Below are positions 7,777-12,546 of a DNA stretch of 21,941 nucleotides, piece after piece. The notes beneath the pieces are model-generated. The model had not been told where the DNA came from. It made no database searches and was given only the letters and a program-made list of their open reading frames with translations. Within the stretch, counting starts at the first letter, position 1, and each line of letters begins with the position of its first letter. Both the position numbers and the translations under genes were made by a program. The stretch lies in the UHGV virus genome UHGV-0105323, one strand, 5' to 3'. The stretch is from a virus.

Positions 7777-8244
7777 ATGAGCCGTGTTCTGTGTGTGGTG
7801 ATTATTGTCCTGGCGGGTGGCTGTGGTGCGCTGTGGCTGGCAACAGACCATTACCGCGATAACGCCATCACCTACAAAGCGCAGCGCGATAAAAAAGCCA
7901 GAGAGCTGGAGCTGGCAAACGCAACCATTACTGATATGCAGGTGCGCCAGCGTGATGTTGCTGCGCTCGATGCAAAATACTCGAGGGAATTAGCTGATGC
8001 GAGAGCTGAAAATGAAACTCTTCGCGCTGACGTTGCCGCTGGTCGTAAGCGCCTGCGTATCAACGCCACCTGTCCAGGTCCCGTGCGTGAAGCCACCGGC
8101 ACCGCCCGCGTGGATAATGCAACCGGCCCCCGACTGGCAGACACCGCTGAACGGGATTATTTCATCCTCAGAGAACGGTTGATGACAATGCAGAAGCAGG
8201 TGGAAGGGGCGCAGGAATATATCCGCACTCAGTGTATTAACTAG
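7777..8244 (+). CDS. Rz: Rz i-spanin (inner-membrane spanin)
   Basis: 155-aa ORF with N-terminal TM ([12 protein letters not shown]) and a long coiled-coil-like periplasmic domain; follows the endolysin and contains an embedded Rz1 ORF in the +1 frame. Confidence 0.8.
8012..8182 (+). CDS. Rz1: Rz1 o-spanin (outer-membrane lipoprotein), embedded in Rz
   Basis: Alternate-frame ORF wholly inside Rz; product [15 protein letters not shown]... has a lipoprotein signal with lipobox LVVSAC and a proline-rich mature region. Confidence 0.75.
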
Positions 8245-8267
8245 TATTTTTGTTATCCGGAGAATGC

Positions 8268-8492
8268 ATGAAGAAATTACTGGTAACCGTAAAGCCTTTT
8301 CAGGGAACAATTCTGTTCCGTATTTTGCAGCGTGGTCGTGTTCTTGTTGAAGGTTCGTTCAGTGGTAAATGTATGCAATTACACTCCCGGACCTTTCAGG
8401 TGAATGCCACGAATGAAGAGCTAACCGTTGAGTGTACGATGAATACCGCTAAATGCCGCATGGTATCCGCTGCATTACAGCGAGTGTGTTGA
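8268..8492 (+). CDS. Hypothetical Cys-containing small protein (74 aa)
   Basis: ATG (MKKLLVTVKPF) with GGAGAA RBS, directly downstream of Rz in a bor-like position. No motif recognised. Confidence 0.4.
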   Translation: MKKLLVTVKPFQGTILFRILQRGRVLVEGSFSGKCMQLHSRTFQVNATNEELTVECTMNTAKCRMVSAALQRVC

Positions 8493-8690
8493 GCGACCTT
8501 ATTATCCATGCGCGGTATTGTCGCCGTATCCCCGCATTAACAGAGACCGCAGCCCGACCGGGAGACTCCTCTGCGCGAGTGTGCGGGGATAATCAAAAAC
8601 GATACACACCGGGGTTTACCGCGTTAACGGAGCGCGGCGTTGTCCCCTCATAGTCGCCTGTCCGGTGCGATGGTGGAAGAAACCGAACGT

Positions 8691-8891
8691 TCATTTCTCG
8701 TTATTTTTCATGCTGGCCGGGCGCAGATGCGTTGCATCTGTTGCCAGCCTTCTCCTGCAGGCTTCAATAACCCACGCTGAAAAGTTACCGGACCCTTTAT
8801 GCTCAAGGGCTATGTTGATTTGTTCAATTATGTGATTGGGGAAACGGATATTGCGGGTTGTGGTTCTGCGGGTCCGGTTTTTCGATGACAT
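8691..8891 (-). CDS. Ribbon-helix-helix (CopG/Arc-like) DNA-binding protein
   Basis: 66-aa reverse-strand ORF with AAAGGAAA RBS; RNIRFPNHIIEQINIALEHKG...FSAWVIEACRRRL fits a beta-strand, helix, loop, helix RHH pattern. Divergent from the HNH gene. Confidence 0.5.
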   Translation of the reverse strand: MSSKNRTRRTTTRNIRFPNHIIEQINIALEHKGSGNFSAWVIEACRRRLATDATHLRPASMKNNEK

Positions 8892-8932
8892 ATTTATTTC
8901 CTTTACTGATTGTCATATGACGGGGATTTTAC

Positions 8933-9298
8933 ATGGCTGAGCTTCGTACACTCCAGAGCAGAATCAAAACACTGAATACCCGACGGGTGAATATTCTGAA
9001 GGGTGAACAGCGTCGTGTCAGTGGCAGTGCACGTGTTTCCCTCAAGCGTCATATCTGGCTCAGGGACGCCGGGCAGTGCTGTATCTGTGGTCGTGTGGTT
9101 GACCTCTGTGACAGTGAACTTGATCACCGAATTGCACTTCAGTTCGGTGGTGGTAATGAGGAGACGAATCTCTGGACGCTCTGTACCGAATGCCATCGAC
9201 AAAAGTCTGCTCGTGAAGCGGCGGGTGGTATGCCGGACCCGACGCTGCCGGAGGTGTCCGGAGGTAGTGGCAGAGCGGACGACATCATCGGACTGTAA
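8933..9298 (+). CDS. HNH homing-type endonuclease (terminase-associated)
   Basis: 121-aa ORF with HNH motif (CCICG...DHRIALQFGG...NLWTLCTECHRQK); sits just upstream of the cos-like region and terminase small subunit, as in HK97-like cos phages. Confidence 0.8.
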   Translation: MAELRTLQSRIKTLNTRRVNILKGEQRRVSGSARVSLKRHIWLRDAGQCCICGRVVDLCDSELDHRIALQFGGGNEETNLWTLCTECHRQKSAREAAGGMPDPTLPEVSGGSGRADDIIGL

Positions 9299-9389
9299 CC
9301 CGACCCGGGGGGGGGATCATCCGGCGTAAAAAACGATCGCTTTGGACACCGCGCCCCCTCTCACGCAGAGAAAAAATTCCCGTTTCAGG

Positions 9390-9516
9390 CCAGTTAACAT
9401 GTTAACTGGCCGTCCGGGCATTTTTGCGGTTTTTATCTTTATTATTCATTTAGTTGCGCGAAAAAAATGTTAACTGGCTTTTTCAGAAAATGTTAACCAG
9501 GCAGCAGTTAACATTT
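9390..9516. other. Putative cos / terminase-recognition region with clustered GTTAAC repeats
   Basis: Five GTTAAC hexamers within about 125 bp, including a perfect 20-bp palindrome CCAGTTAACATGTTAACTGG (9390-9409) and three further ATGTTAAC-type motifs; a G9 homopolymer lies at 9308-9316. Located between HNH and TerS. Confidence 0.45.
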
Positions 9517-9588
9517 GCGGCATGAGACGCCGGGAAAAATGGGCTGAACCATACCCGGCTGAGTGCGTTCTGGACCCGGGAGGAGGCT

Positions 9589-10152
9589 GTGCTGACAACG
9601 CAAAAACGAAAATTTGCGCTGGCGCTCATGTCCGGGAAAAACAAAACAGCGTCAGCCATTGCCGCCGGTTATTCGGCGAAGACCGCCAGGGTTAAAGGCT
9701 CGCAGCTGGCAAAAGATCCGGAGGTGCTTGCGTTTATAGCCCGTAAACAATGCGAGACGGTGGAGGTGGATGAGGTTCCTGTTTACCGGCAGAAAAAATC
9801 AGAGCAGGAGGATAAACCCCGTCGCCGTGAGGCGGCTGCAATACCACAGCCGGACGAAAACAATCCGGAGATGCCACCGTCCGCGGTGATGTCTCCTGGT
9901 ATTGAATATATGGAGGATGGTCTTCCCGATCCGGTGAAAGCCATGGGGCGGATCCTGGTGGAAAACCTCTGCATTGATCCGAAACTGGCACTGGATGCGG
10001 CCTGGCGTCTGGCGCAGTTCACGCACCATAAAAAAGGGGATACCGGGAAAAAATCGGCAAAAGGTGATGCCGCGAAAAAAGCGGCTAACCGTTTTGCGGT
10101 GCCACCGCCACCCCGACTGGTGGTGAATAACGATAATGAGGGCAACGGATGA
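9589..10152 (+). CDS. Terminase small subunit
   Basis: GTG start with GGAGGAGG RBS; N-terminus (KRKFALALMSGKNKTASAIAAGYSAKTARVKGSQLAKDPEV) resembles phage terminase small-subunit HTH regions; HNH-cos-TerS synteny. Confidence 0.7.
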   Translation: MLTTQKRKFALALMSGKNKTASAIAAGYSAKTARVKGSQLAKDPEVLAFIARKQCETVEVDEVPVYRQKKSEQEDKPRRREAAAIPQPDENNPEMPPSAVMSPGIEYMEDGLPDPVKAMGRILVENLCIDPKLALDAAWRLAQFTHHKKGDTGKKSAKGDAAKKAANRFAVPPPPRLVVNNDNEGNG

Positions 10153-10406
10153 TACCTGTATGGAGCACAGCCTGCCCGGACTGGGCAGAGCGCCTGAAAA
10201 AGGGGCTGTCGATTATTCCGGATCCGATTTATCCGGACGAGGCCGCACATGCCCTGGCGATTTTTAAACAACTGCGGATTGTGGATGCACCTGGTAGCCC
10301 TACGTTCGGGGAGTCCTGTGCACCGTGGGTGGCGCAACTGGGCCTCATCCGTACTGCAGGAAATATCAAAAGTTCTTATGAATGCCGCGATTGTCAACGG
10401 AATTAA
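10149..10406 (+). pseudogene. Terminase large subunit, N-terminal fragment (truncated at a deletion junction)
   Basis: ORF overlaps the TerS stop (ATGA) and opens MIPVWSTACPDWAERLKKGLSIIPDPIYPDEA..., which resembles TerL N-termini of HK97/P27-like phages, but recognisable sequence runs only about 60 codons before the frame changes into tape-measure sequence. Junction estimated near 10330-10375. Confidence 0.6.
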
Positions 10407-10842
10407 GACGGCGGCAAACGGTATGTCCGGTGCGGGAGGATTTATTGGCAGCATTGGTGACTGGCTGGGCGGTGCGGTGGCCAATGCAAAAGGCGGCGTG
10501 TATACCTCGGCAAACCTGAGCGCGTACAGCAACAGTATTGTGGATACGCCCACGTACTTTGCCTTTGCAAAAGGGGCCGGGCTGATGGGGGAAGCAGGAC
10601 CTGAAGCCATAATGCCCCTGACCCGGGCGGCGGATGGCTCGCTGGGTGTACGCGCGGTGGGCAGTATGAACGGCAGTGCCGGTCTGGTGTATTCCCCGGT
10701 CTACCATATCGCCATTCAGAATGACGGGGCCAACGGTCAGATAGGGCCGGAGGCGGCAGGCAGCCTTGTTCAGCTGATTGACCAGCGGGTGCAGGCGGTG
10801 ATGCTGTCCATGCGACGAGACGGAGGAATGCTGAGTGGCTGA
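10249..10842 (+). pseudogene. H: Tail tape-measure protein (lambda H-like), C-terminal fragment
   Basis: Gly-rich C-terminal segment (AAIVNGIKTAANGMSGAGGFIGSIGDWLGGAVANAKGGVYTSANLSAYS...) of the kind found at lambda-H-like tape-measure C-termini, ending 8 nt past the start of M exactly as H precedes M in lambda. The first roughly 30-40 codons of this frame are out-of-frame TerL DNA. Confidence 0.65.
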
Positions 10843-11176
10843 GATAAAAACGCTGCATCTGGTCCCGCGTGAAGGGATGCAGGTGAGTGAGAAACCGTCG
10901 GTGGTGAGGGTCCGGTTTGGTGACGGTTATGAACAGCGCCGACCGACGGGACTGAATGCCCGACTGAAGACATTTCAGGCGGTGTTCCGGGTGACGGATG
11001 AGGCGACCCGGCGCTGGCTGGATGAATTTTTATCGTGGCATGGTGGTTACCGTGCCTTTTTGTGGAAACCCCCGAAACATAACCGGACGGTCAGGGTGGT
11101 GTGCCGGGAGTGGAGTATTACGGATAACGCCAGGTACAGCGATTTCAGTTGTATGATGGAACAGGTAATAAGATAA
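10835..11176 (+). CDS. M: Minor tail protein M
   Basis: 113-aa ORF (GTG start) with VRVRFGDGYEQRRPTGLNARLKT...FLWKPP motifs matching lambda gpM; H-M-L synteny. Confidence 0.85.
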   Translation: MAEIKTLHLVPREGMQVSEKPSVVRVRFGDGYEQRRPTGLNARLKTFQAVFRVTDEATRRWLDEFLSWHGGYRAFLWKPPKHNRTVRVVCREWSITDNARYSDFSCMMEQVIR

Positions 11177-11382
11177 GTTTTTGAGAAAAAACCTAAAAGC
11201 ATCGTTTATTAATTTGCTTGCTTGTTATTTTTGTTTTGTCTTGACATAAAGTGCTATCAAAGTTGTTTTTTTACATTTTGAAACAAAATAAAAATTGAAC
11301 CCGTAATTTAATTTACAATATTTTGAGTTTTGTTCATGACATCTCTATGCATGAATAGTTCAGTTTAAATAAGGATTAAATC

Positions 11383-12546
11383 ATGAAAAAAATGACAGTG
11401 GCACTTTCAGCTGTGGCAGCAGCTGTAATTTTTGCAGCGGGGGCGCAGGCTGCAGAAGTATACAATAAAGATGGCAATAAACTTGATGTGTATGGGCGTG
11501 CAACTGCACTCCATTATTTCTCCAGTGATAAGGGGGATGATGGAGATAAGACATACGCACGTCTGGGCTTTAAAGGTGAAACTCAGATTAATGACCAGTT
11601 GACTGGTTTTGGTCAGTGGGAATATCAGTTCTCTGGTAATAAAGCTGAATCAGAGGGTGCTGCGGGTAATAAAACCCGTCTTGCATTTGCAGGTCTGAAG
11701 TTTGGTGAGTTTGGCACCATTGATTATGGTCGTAACTATGGTATTGCGTACGATGTTGGTTCTTATACTGACGTATTACCAGAGTTTGGCGGTGATGGCT
11801 GGACCCAGACCGATAACTTCATGACAGCCCGTACTTCCGGGGTATTAACCTATCGTAATACAGATTTCTTTGGGCTTGTCGATGGCCTGAATTTTGCGGC
11901 ACAGTACCAGGGTAAAAATGATCGGGGTGATCTCCGGAAAGCTAATGGTGATGGTCACGGTTTCTCAGCCAGTTATGAATATGAAGGTTTTGGTATCGTT
12001 GCCGCATATATTAATGCGGACCGAACCAATAATCAGGAAAAAGGTCTGAATGGTACTCTGACGATTGAACAAACTGATCCTTTAACCGGTAAAGTGACTG
12101 AAAAGCAGATCGTTGTTGATTCCGGTAGTGTTGCAAAAGGTAAACACGCTGAGATGTGGGGAGTCGGACTAAAATACGATGCTGACAACCTTTACCTGGC
12201 TACAACATATTCCGAAACTCAGAATCTGACGACCTTTGGTGATAAAGGAGTTGCAGATAAAGCGCAAAACTTTGAAGCGGTACTGCAGTATCAGTTTGAT
12301 TTTGGTCTGCGCCCGTCCCTGGCCTACCTTCAGTCCCGCGGACAGGATGTTATGGTTGGTGGTGTGAACCATGGCGATCAGGATCTGGTTAAATATATTG
12401 ATGTCGGAGCGACTTATTACTTTAACAAGAATATGTCCACCTATGTTGATTATAAAATTAACCTGATTGATGAAAGTGAATTTACCCGGAAAGCCGGTGT
12501 TGCGACAGATAATATCGTTGCTGTGGGTATGACTTATCAGTTCTGA
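11383..12546 (+). CDS. General diffusion porin (OmpC/OmpF/PhoE family; NmpC/Lc-like prophage porin)
   Basis: 387-aa ORF with signal peptide ([38 protein letters not shown]), typical porin strands ([35 protein letters not shown]) and C-terminal ...VGMTYQF. Preceded by about 200 bp of very AT-rich DNA and followed by a strong terminator; inserted between M and L. Confidence 0.85.

What the first reader, a model, noticed from the sequence alone, without database searches (positions are those of the whole stretch)
9299..9590. GTTAAC-repeat cluster with a 20-bp perfect palindrome and a G9 tract upstream of the terminase small subunit
Five GTTAAC hexamers fall within about 125 bp of a non-coding stretch, where roughly one per 4 kb is expected by chance; one pair forms CCAGTTAACATGTTAACTGG. 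The position between HNH and TerS is where HK97-like phages carry cos and terminase binding sites. A G9 homopolymer directly after the HNH stop is a potential slippage or assembly-error hotspot.
Basis: seen in the sequence. Interest (0 to 1): 0.45.

Follow-up and report, generated by a model that had tools for sequence, protein, structure and literature searches.

The report
Phage cos site with terminase-recognition repeats
The GTTAAC cluster is part of the DNA-packaging start site (cos) of a Shiga-toxin-type prophage, and the repeats are most likely where the small terminase docks; this is an ordinary kind of element, but comparison with relatives gives a testable protein–DNA recognition rule.

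Summary
Five GTTAAC hexamers lie in 120 bp (9393-9512; none of 20,000 local shuffles gives three or more). A palindrome that is perfect over 24 bp in this window spans 9388-9411. A G9 run lies at 9307-9315.

The region is the cos site of an HK97-type, HNH-dependent packaging module in a defective BP-4795/1717/2851-like prophage. The record of the induced relative Lys8385Vzw, whose ends were mapped by PhageTerm, ends at CGCCCCCCCT and starts at CTCACGC. That places the cut at window 9350-9359/9360, 29 bp before the palindrome.

The repeats are oriented 8-mers, ATGTTAAC (strands -,+,+,+,-). They are unchanged in 61 unique spacers whose TerS has the helix KTARVKGSQL. In relatives whose TerS recognition helix reads KSARCKGSQL, all five sites become ATGTTTAY at the same positions. 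Satellite-like islands with KTARVKGWQL carry GTTACA repeats instead. HNH divergence does not track the motif. The repeats are therefore most likely cosB-like binding sites for the SF6-type helix-turn-helix domain of TerS. Binding itself is untested.

The G-run varies in length (G5-G11) but is conserved and fixed in position in 103 of 104 relatives, and HK97 and SfV have a similar run. It looks like part of cos rather than only an error hotspot. In this window TerL is truncated, so the site is a relic usable only in trans.

The parts
8933..9298 (+). HNH endonuclease gene, the accessory nuclease of an HK97-type packaging module
   Evidence: Pfam HNH, E 4.8e-7. It is annotated as HNH endonuclease in BP-4795. 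It is only distantly related to HK97 gp74 (BLASTP E 0.098).
9307..9315 (.). G9 run followed by ATCA: a conserved, position-fixed element on the right-end side of cos
   Evidence: A run of at least 5 G ends 27-30 nt before GGACACC in 103 of 104 unique cos regions, with run lengths of 5-11. HK97 has G9-ATCA 42 nt before its right end. SfV has GGGGAGGGGCGGG-TCAAATCT 41 nt before the end of its cos decamer. Its function is inferred.
9344..9364 (+). Conserved cos core GGACACCGCGCCCCCTCTCAC
   Evidence: This core is present from E. coli to Erwinia, Pantoea and Morganella prophages whose TerS is only 36-49% identical.
9350..9359 (+). Predicted 10-nt 3' cohesive end (cosN equivalent), CGCGCCCCCT; the virion left end would begin at 9360
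   Evidence: By collinearity with the ends of the Lys8385Vzw record and the PhageTerm result in PMC7946995. It differs from that decamer at one base. Ends were not mapped for this window.
9367..9382 (+). A-tract box AGAGAAAAAATTCCCG at +8 to +23 from the cut, conserved across the whole family
   Evidence: HK97 has CCCGATTTTTTT within its mapped TerS site at +15 to +29 (PMC11331095). SfV has a T7 tract followed by CCCG after its cos. A role here is inferred.
9388..9411 (.). Sites S1(-) and S2(+): two ATGTTAAC units head-to-head, overlapping by 2 bp, forming the palindrome at +29 to +52
   Evidence: (I3). The S2 ATGTTAAC lies at the same distance from cos as the terS start codon (ATG TTA AC) of short-spacer relatives.
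9415..9463 (.). T/A-tract-rich spacer between S1/S2 and S3-S5; a possible intrinsic bend
   Evidence: The T-tracts at 9421-9425, 9430-9434 and 9438-9440 and the ATTCA..GTT positions are invariant across site types A, B and C. No IHF consensus match with at most 1 mismatch falls here. Bending is inferred.
9464..9478 (+). Site S3, AAAATGTTAACTGGC
   Evidence: D1. The GTTAAC is invariant in 51 unique close-relative sequences.
9487..9501 (+). Site S4, AAAATGTTAACCAGG
   Evidence: D1.
9503..9517 (-). Site S5, GCAAATGTTAACTGC on the minus strand; a perfect 12-nt inverted copy of S3
   Evidence: I4, I8; the sequence is identical in 78 of 78 relatives.
9589..10152 (+). Small terminase (TerS), with a GTG start preceded by GGGAGGAGG
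   Evidence: Pfam Terminase_2. In the AlphaFold model the N-terminal domain has pLDDT 92-95, with helices at 4-14, 19-25, 33-41 and 44-56. Foldseek matches the SF6 small-terminase DNA-binding domain (4zc3, 2cmp; TM 0.81-0.84 normalised to the target).
10149..10331 (+). Remnant of the large terminase gene (about 61 codons), followed by a deletion junction
   Evidence: Collinearity with BP-4795 stops at 10331. Downstream lie a minor tail protein gene and a porin gene.

Best explanation
Window 9299-9590 is the cos region of an HK97-type (TerL plus HNH) packaging module belonging to a BP-4795/1717/2851-like Stx-type siphophage.

The layout, taking 9360 as +1, is as follows:
- a conserved G-run at -53 to -45;
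- the cut site, a 10-nt 3' cohesive end at 9350-9359;
- a conserved A-tract box at +8 to +23;
- a cosB-like array of five oriented ATGTTAAC sites: an inverted overlapping pair at +34 to +47, then a T-tract spacer, then three more sites at +108 to +155;
- terS, starting at +230.

Proposed mechanism. The helix-turn-helix domains of the oligomeric TerS bind the five sites. This marks the DNA as phage DNA and positions TerL and HNH to make the staggered cut about 30-40 bp to the left. Packaging then proceeds rightward through terS.

The array probably grew out of a single GTAAAC-AT-GTTAAC element. In most family members that element overlaps the terS start codon.

What is shown: the anatomy, the position of the cut in an intact relative, the conservation, and the co-variation between the motif and the TerS recognition helix. 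What is inferred: that TerS physically binds the sites, that the spacer bends, and any role of the G-run (for example a cosQ-like role in termination or in positioning the nucleases).

In this window the prophage has lost TerL and the head genes, so the site can only act in trans with a related helper phage.
For: Position of the cut. The Lys8385Vzw record is linearised exactly at ...CGCCCCCCCT | CTCACGCAGAG.... PhageTerm called 3' cos ends for that phage (PMC7946995).

Module type. The TerL of the intact relative BP-4795 matches only HK97 TerL in the PDB (6z6d, E 1e-9). HNH lies immediately upstream. HK97 itself has the order HNH - cos - terS.

Non-randomness..

Conservation. All five GTTAAC copies are invariant in 51 unique sequences.

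Co-variation:
- TerS helix KTARVKGSQL/KTARVKGSRL goes with 5-6 GTTAAC in 63 of 64 unique spacers. The exception has 4 GTTAAC plus one GTTTAY.
- KSARCKGSQL goes with no GTTAAC and 5 GTTTAY at the same aligned positions. This is seen with two TerS proteins, P0023 and P0033, that are 78% and 68% identical to the window's TerS. All five sites are seen for P0023; the short P0033 contig shows only S3-S5.
- KTARVKGWQL, found in satellite-like islands, goes with GTTACA repeats (2 and 6 copies).

Other candidates do not track the motif. TerL is 96% identical between the GTTAAC and GTTTAY types. L344/L345 have an HNH only 79% identical to the window's HNH, as far as the GTTTAY type's HNH is from BP-4795's, and they keep GTTAAC.

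Location of the changed residues. Residues 32 and 35 lie at the N-cap and inside the predicted recognition helix 33-41 of an SF6-like DNA-binding domain.

Short-spacer relatives keep GTAAAC-AT-GTTAAC 39-40 nt after cos and use the TTA codon for Leu2. Pantoea L102 starts terS with ATGCTGACA instead and carries two separate GTTAAC copies between cos and terS.

The extra site in L174 and L344 is a 10-bp insertion, about one helical turn.
Against: - No binding experiment has been done. TerS-DNA contact is inferred from comparative data with few independent specificity switches: two lineages with the KSARC helix and two satellite lineages.
- The cut site is transferred by homology. The window's decamer differs from the mapped one at one base, and the mapping rests on one PhageTerm analysis in one paper.
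- HK97, the only member of this packaging type with a mapped TerS site, uses a single 15-bp site and a TerS without a helix-turn-helix (PMC11331095). The mechanism cannot simply be carried over from HK97.
- The conserved A-tract box could be the true TerS site, with the repeats serving another purpose.
- Morganella L104, whose TerS helix is KTAKVKGSQL, has no GTTAAC between cos and terS; its two copies lie upstream of the G-run.
- Overall sequence conservation of 9460-9640 among close relatives is so high that invariance of the motifs there adds little by itself.
Confidence: 0.72

Rival explanations
1. The palindrome, with its flanking A-run and T-run, is an intrinsic (possibly bidirectional) transcription terminator or an RNA hairpin between HNH and terS. 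The other GTTAAC copies would then be incidental.
For: As RNA, 9360-9445 folds at -27.7 kcal/mol (z = -4.65), with a 10-bp GC-capped stem followed by CAUUUUUGCGGUUUUU. The 66-nt core folds at -24.2 kcal/mol (z = -4.5). Type C also has a stable stem followed by a U-run.
Against: The consensus terminator scan found none. The commonest type A sequence folds at only -18.1 kcal/mol (z = -1.8), and type B at -5.6 kcal/mol (z = -0.33) with a different fold. Stability is therefore not conserved, whereas the dyad of recognition motifs is. This reading does not explain sites S3-S5 or their concerted change. Late lambdoid transcription is antiterminated in any case (general knowledge).
Confidence: 0.1
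2. The repeats are operators for a DNA-binding protein other than TerS, such as the HNH protein, the neighbouring DUF3950 protein or a host factor, which regulates terS expression or cos cleavage.
For: HNH also differs between the GTTAAC and GTTTAY types (79% identity). The gene upstream of HNH differs as well: DUF3950 in type A, an unrelated 74-aa ORF in type B.
Against: L344/L345 keep GTTAAC although their HNH is only 79% identical to the window's, as far as the GTTTAY type's HNH is from BP-4795's. L339 keeps GTTAAC although no DUF3950 gene was called there. The satellite-like islands have neither an HNH nor a DUF3950 gene near cos, yet they carry their own repeat type next to their own TerS. 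A host factor would not explain lineage-specific motifs within a single host species.
Confidence: 0.1
3. The copies are non-functional remnants of duplications of the terS 5' end (ATG TTA AC = Met-Leu-Thr), left behind when about 190 bp were inserted between cos and terS.
For: In short-spacer relatives ATGTTAAC is the terS start, at the same distance from cos as window 9399. A 24-codon ORF beginning MLTG starts at 9399.
Against: All five copies are invariant in 51 unique sequences. All five change in the same way in type B. Pantoea L102 keeps GTTAAC in the spacer although its terS start uses CTG. Extra copies arise as 10-bp insertions. Origin by duplication is likely and is compatible with a present function.
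Confidence: 0.06

Closest known systems
Lambda cos (cosQ - cosN - cosB, with R3/I1/R2/R1 sites bound by the gpNu1 winged helix-turn-helix; the lambda versus phage 21 packaging-specificity classes). Recalled from established knowledge, not re-read here.
   Same: A conserved nicking site is followed, on the terS side, by several short repeats in mixed orientation separated by a bendable spacer. The repeats and the TerS DNA-binding helix change together between specificity classes while the cut site and TerL stay compatible. There is also an extra element upstream of the cut site.
   Different: This cos has a 10-nt 3' overhang, whereas lambda has a 12-nt 5' overhang. Cleavage belongs to an HNH-dependent, HK97-type TerL system. 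TerS is an SF6-type Terminase_2 protein, not gpNu1. No IHF consensus site was found. The repeats share no sequence with the lambda R sites.
HK97 cos and its small terminase site (PMC11331095; PMC9410871)
   Same: The gene order is HNH - cos - terS. The TerL is homologous (6z6d, E 1e-9). Both have a GC-rich 10-nt 3' cohesive end, a G-run followed by ATCA 42-44 nt before the cut, and an A/T tract next to CCCG just inside the left end.
   Different: HK97 TerS has no helix-turn-helix domain. It recognises one 15-bp site (+15 to +29) as DNA leaves its central tunnel. Here TerS has an SF6-like helix-turn-helix domain, and there are five repeats spread over +34 to +155. The two HNH proteins are only remotely related.
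SPP1/SF6 pac region (pacL/pacR boxes bound by G1P). The boxes are recalled from established knowledge.
   Same: The TerS DNA-binding domain has the same fold (4zc3 and 2cmp, TM 0.81-0.84, about 30% identity). In both cases several short boxes flank or adjoin the cleavage site in curved DNA.
   Different: SPP1 and SF6 are headful (pac) packagers without precise ends or an HNH partner. The box sequences are unrelated.
cos region of Stx1 phage Lys8385Vzw and the BP-4795/1717/2851 group
   Same: The element is the same at 93-97% identity, with five GTTAAC copies and the same cos core.
   Different: The published work reports only the 10-nt cos decamer. I found no description of the repeats or the G-run in the searchable library. 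The window copy has G9 rather than G7, a one-base difference in the decamer, and a 24-bp palindrome found in no other relative examined.

Membership tests
HK97-type, HNH-dependent cos packaging module | cos lies between an HNH endonuclease gene and terS, with terS just inside the left end | tested here: met
   HNH is at 8933-9298 and TerS at 9589-10152. HK97 has the same order, as do Lys8385Vzw and SfV.
HK97-type, HNH-dependent cos packaging module | Virion DNA ends (10-nt 3' cohesive ends) map to this spot | tested here: met
   This is met for a relative only. The Lys8385Vzw record ends and starts at the position homologous to 9359/9360, and PhageTerm called 3' cos ends in PMC7946995. It cannot be tested for this defective prophage.
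HK97-type, HNH-dependent cos packaging module | The large terminase is homologous to HK97 gp2 | tested here: met
   BP-4795 TerL matches 6z6d at E 1.1e-9 over residues 85-534. In the window only about 61 codons of TerL remain.
HK97-type, HNH-dependent cos packaging module | The small terminase is of the HK97 gp1 type (no helix-turn-helix; recognition through the central tunnel) | tested here: not met
   TerS belongs to Pfam Terminase_2 and has an SF6-like helix-turn-helix domain. No HK97 gp1 chain was among the PDB sequence hits.
cosB-type small-terminase recognition array | Several copies of a short motif lie on the terS side of the cut, inside the left end | tested here: met
   There are five ATGTTAAC sites at +34 to +155.
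cosB-type small-terminase recognition array | The motif co-varies with the TerS DNA-binding domain while the cut site and TerL stay the same | tested here: met
   See the table and the alignment. TerL is 96% identical between the two types and TerS differs in the helix-turn-helix. HNH divergence is uncoupled from the motif.
cosB-type small-terminase recognition array | TerS binds the repeats directly and sequence-specifically | not testable with these tools
   This needs EMSA or footprinting with TerS or its N-terminal domain.
cosB-type small-terminase recognition array | A bend (an IHF site or intrinsic curvature) lies between the sites | tested here: inconclusive
   No IHF consensus match with at most 1 mismatch falls in the spacer. 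T-tracts spaced 8-11 bp apart are conserved across types A, B and C. Curvature was not computed.
Intrinsic terminator | A stable GC-rich stem immediately followed by a U-run, conserved among relatives | tested here: not met
   The consensus scan found none. Hairpin stability falls from -24.2 to -5.6 kcal/mol across relatives.
Known RNA family (Rfam) | A match to a covariance model | tested here: not met
   No match with E up to 1 in 9200-9700 on either strand.

The most novel reading that the evidence does not exclude
This family may be a natural set of packaging-specificity classes. All share one cut site, G-run, TerL and HNH, and they differ only in a two-residue change in the TerS recognition helix (T32S and V35C, or S38W) matched by a one- to two-base change in every repeat (GTTAAC, GTTTAY or GTTACA). 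Integrase-bearing satellite islands would exploit this. They carry the helper-type cut site together with their own TerS and their own repeats, and no TerL or HNH was called on the one island read in full, so they could redirect a helper's nuclease and motor onto satellite DNA. Separately, the G-run 42-44 nt before the cut, which HK97 and SfV also have, may be a cosQ-like element of HNH-dependent cos sites that has not been described.
Probability: 0.45. Interest if true: 0.62.

Novelty: new member of a known kind. Interest (0 to 1): 0.45.

Why it matters
How small terminases read DNA is still debated. The one HK97-type system studied in detail uses a TerS without a helix-turn-helix domain and a single binding site.

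This family combines the HK97-type nuclease, motor and cut site with an SF6-type helix-turn-helix TerS and a multi-site array. Natural variants point to which helix residues read which bases, so swap experiments can test the rule directly.

The element also defines the packaging signal of a large group of Stx1-, Stx2a- and Stx2c-converting phages and of related satellite islands. That bears on the mobilisation of toxin genes. It also bears on whether cos relics in defective prophages, such as this one, could be packaged by co-resident helper phages.

Tried and rejected
- **IHF site in the spacer.** WATCAANNNNTTR with at most 1 mismatch has no hit between 9360 and 9588, and the window-wide count is at chance level.
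- **Terminator.** The consensus scan found none, and hairpin stability is not conserved.
- **Promoter.** The only promoter-like hit in the spacer (minus strand, 9496-9467) is built from the repeats themselves. I did not pursue it.
- **Rfam.** No match.
- **Literature.** A search for the cos decamers returned only unrelated papers. A search for GTTAAC with small terminase and cos returned nothing. A search for phage 2851 cohesive ends returned nothing useful.
- **Further phage records linearised at this cos.** A search of the phage collection with a distant relative's cos module found none.
- **The window's exact deletion junction.** None of the 5,426 complete E. coli genomes covers at least 80% of 9250-11450, so the host strain remains unidentified.
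- **Direct repeat D2** (GACCCGGGGGGGGG at 9302 and GACCCGGGAGGAGG at 9573). I considered this as a possible insertion boundary and dropped it, because the second copy is simply the terS ribosome-binding site.
- **HNH as the binder of the repeats.** Rejected on the evidence of L344/L345.
- **Structure prediction.** It was repeated with alignment A3.

Full report
**1. The observation**

GTTAAC occurs ten times in the window, and five copies lie at 9393, 9401, 9469, 9492 and 9507. Dinucleotide-preserving shuffles of the whole window expect 3.9 copies in total. In 20,000 local shuffles of 9360-9588, none gave three or more copies. A Poisson estimate for five or more in 120 bp is about 1e-10.

In this window it extends to a perfect 24-mer at 9388-9411. 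The G9 run is at 9307-9315, 8 nt after the HNH stop codon.

HNH is at 8933-9298 and a Terminase_2 small terminase is at 9589-10152.

The repeat unit is longer than the hexamer and has a direction. ATGTTAAC, often preceded by AA and followed by TGG, occurs on strands -,+,+,+,-.

**2. What the locus is**

The spacer is 93-97% identical to the HNH-terS spacer of 93 phage records. These include BP-4795, 2851, 1717, YYZ-2008, phi330 and many Stx1a-, Stx2a- and Stx2c-converting phages.

Collinearity with BP-4795 ends at 10331, about 61 codons into TerL. Beyond that point lie a minor tail protein gene and a porin gene. The window therefore holds a defective prophage that cannot package itself. None of the complete E. 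coli genomes searched covers at least 80% of the region spanning this junction.

**3. Where cos is**

Phage Lys8385Vzw was sequenced from induced particles. PhageTerm reported 3' cohesive ends with cos = CGCCCCCCCT at the genome end (PMC7946995).

Its record ends ...GGACACCGCCCCCCCT and begins CTCACGCAGAGAAAAAATTCCCGTTTCAGGGCAGTTAACATGTTAACTGG.... The window reads ...GGACACCGCGCCCCCT|CTCACGCAGAGAAAAAATTCCCGTTTCAGGCCAGTTAACATGTTAACTGG.

The homologous cohesive end is therefore 9350-9359, with one base different. A virion left end would start at 9360, and the palindrome starts 29 bp inside it.

TerL of BP-4795 matches only HK97 TerL among solved structures. HK97 and SfV have the same HNH - cos - terS order.

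**4. Conservation**

Across 78 close relatives (50 unique spacers) all five GTTAAC copies are invariant. The flanks vary a little. The 24-bp palindrome is unique to this window, and the 18-bp core is present in 77 of 78. This invariance is weak evidence on its own, because the whole stretch 9460-9640 is nearly invariant among close relatives.

Distant relatives are more informative. Prophages of Atlantibacter, Kluyvera, Enterobacter, Citrobacter, Serratia, Erwinia, Pantoea and Morganella, whose TerS is 36-49% identical, share a module of about 110 bp:
- a G-run;
- then 27-30 nt;
- then GGACACCGCGCCCCCTCTCACGCACAGAAAAAATTCCCC;
- then a ribosome-binding site;
- then GTAAAC-ATGTTAAC, in which ATG TTA AC is the terS start.

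The window's + strand site S2 (9399-9406) sits at the same distance from cos (40 nt, against 39 nt) as that ancestral start codon. The window lineage has about 190 extra base pairs, with three more copies, before the real terS start GTGCTGACA.

Two observations argue that the motif is a DNA signal and not a by-product of coding. Citrobacter relatives have GTTAAC-GT-GTTAAC at the start. Pantoea L102, which starts terS with ATGCTGACA, carries two separate GTTAAC copies between cos and terS. Morganella L104 is less clear: it also starts with ATGCTGACA, but its two GTTAAC copies lie upstream of the G-run and none lies between cos and terS.

**5. Co-variation with TerS**

Relatives with the long spacer fall into classes.

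| TerS recognition helix | Repeats between cos and terS | Support |
|---|---|---|
| KTARVKGSQL / KTARVKGSRL | 5-6 GTTAAC | 63 of 64 unique spacers; one has 4 GTTAAC plus 1 GTTTAY |
| KSARCKGSQL | 0 GTTAAC, 5 GTTTAY at the same aligned positions | 3 unique spacers (P0023); P0033 on a short contig shows S3-S5 only |
| KTARVKGWQL (satellite-like islands) | AAAGTTACAC repeats, 2 and 6 copies | L175, L342 |
| KSARSKGSQL (short spacer, 33-34 nt) | single GTAAAC-AT-GTTAAC at the terS ATG | 11 unique spacers |

In the KSARCKGSQL class the two TerS proteins, P0023 and P0033, are 78% and 68% identical to the window's TerS. In the P0023 loci every oriented site reads ATGTTTAY: the palindrome becomes TATAAACATGTTTATA, and the others become ATGTTTATA, ATGTTTACA and ATGTTTACC. 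In other words, the same A-to-T change has occurred at position 6 of all five sites. The three sites visible for P0033 show the same change.

Other candidate binders do not track the motif. TerL is 96% identical between the GTTAAC and GTTTAY classes. HNH differs by 21% between those classes, but L344/L345 have an HNH only 79% identical to the window's and still keep GTTAAC. L339 keeps GTTAAC without a called DUF3950 gene.

An AlphaFold model places helices at residues 4-14, 19-25, 33-41 and 44-56, with pLDDT 92-95. This domain superposes on the SF6 small-terminase DNA-binding domain with TM 0.81-0.84. The class-defining residues 32, 35 and 38 lie at the N-cap of, or within, the predicted recognition helix.

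The extra site in L174 and L344 is a 10-bp insertion, about one helical turn.

I read these data as the lambda cosN/cosB logic: a shared cut site plus class-specific TerS recognition repeats. Direct binding remains untested.

**6. The spacer and the palindrome**

Between S1/S2 and S3 lie T-tracts that are conserved across the site classes. No IHF consensus site is present. An intrinsic bend is plausible but is only an inference.

As RNA the window's palindrome folds strongly, at -24 to -28 kcal/mol with z about -4.5, and it is followed by U-runs. The commonest type A sequence reaches only z = -1.8 and type B only z = -0.3. The terminator scan found nothing, and Rfam has no match. The hairpin is therefore a by-product of two inverted binding sites. 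At most it is a lineage-specific extra.

**7. The G-run**

The run is also conserved. In 103 of 104 unique cos regions of the wider family, a run of at least five G ends 27-30 nt before GGACACC. HK97 has G9-ATCAAATC 42 nt before its right end. SfV has GGGGAGGGGCGGG-TCAAATCT 41 nt before the end of its cos decamer. The window has G9-ATCATCC 44 nt before the cut.

Neither the passages that the term search returned from PMC9410871 nor the sections read from PMC11331095 mention the run. A position-fixed element on the last-packaged side of the cut recalls lambda cosQ. That role is speculation.

All three cos families also have an A- or T-tract next to CCCG just inside the left end. In HK97 this lies within the mapped TerS site at +15 to +29. 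Here it is AGAGAAAAAATTCCCG at +8 to +23.

**8. Comparison with known systems, and novelty**

The element works like lambda cos, but it belongs to an HK97-type, HNH-dependent module with a 3' overhang. It differs from HK97 itself in the type of TerS and in having a multi-site array.

The cos decamer of this phage group is published. I found no description of the repeats, of their co-variation with TerS, or of the G-run.

I rate this a new member of a known kind, of moderate interest. The main value is a directly testable recognition rule for a helix-turn-helix small terminase, together with the link to satellite islands.

Noticed in passing
L338 (GCA_012987925.1 contig AATOBA010000003.1) about 3400-12000; also L175-L177 and L342/L343: These look like phage-satellite islands. 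L338 carries an integrase, an AAA_25 replication protein, a G7 run with the cos core GGACACCGCCCCCCGTCTCAT (identical to one Stx-phage variant), its own TerS (P0064, 46% identical to the window's TerS, helix KTARVKGWQL) and a capsid-like 307-aa protein. No TerL or HNH gene was called. AAAGTTACAC repeats lie between cos and terS, and the island sits next to the ccm operon. A second type (P0055, L342) has AlpA, a TerS gene and six GTTACA copies.
   Followed up: partly
L337 2195-2210 (PPompW_132418, LC567822.1); equivalent to window about 9311: In PPompW prophages an IS110-family element, ISEc20, abuts the cos G-run, leaving G5. The lysis genes and HNH upstream are missing. The G-run, or its neighbourhood, may be the IS target or a deletion endpoint.
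   Followed up: partly
window 9399-9473 (+): A 24-codon ORF, MLTGRPGIFAVFIFIIHLVARKKC, starts at the ancestral terS ATG, is hydrophobic and ends inside site S3. About 230 of the 252 ORFs tallied in relatives are intact 24-codon versions, with amino-acid changes; several are frameshifted or extended, and it lacks a clear ribosome-binding site. It is probably a vestige of the old terS start rather than a gene.
   Followed up: partly
window 10149-10331, then 10332-12546: TerL is cut off after about 61 codons and joined to tail genes (a minor tail protein at 10835-11176) and an OmpC-like porin gene (11383-12546). The prophage has lost its head and packaging genes but keeps an intact-looking cos and terS.
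   Followed up: partly
L346/L167 (HK97 right end) and L347/L348 (SfV ends): HK97, SfV and this family share one cos layout: a G-rich run followed by (A)TCA, then about 30 nt, then a GC-rich 10-nt cohesive end, then an A- or T-tract next to CCCG, then terS within 40-70 nt. The HK97 and SfV sequences after the G-run are nearly identical (TCAAATCT).
   Followed up: partly
window 8691-8891 (-): A DUF3950 gene lies on the opposite strand just upstream of HNH in type A relatives. In the GTTTAY-type loci an unrelated 74-aa ORF on the + strand takes its place. Its function is unknown.
   Followed up: no
window 9333-9338 (CGATCG): A GATC (Dam) site between the G-run and the cos core is invariant across site types A-C and present in most distant relatives shown. 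Whether methylation matters for cos function is unknown.
   Followed up: no
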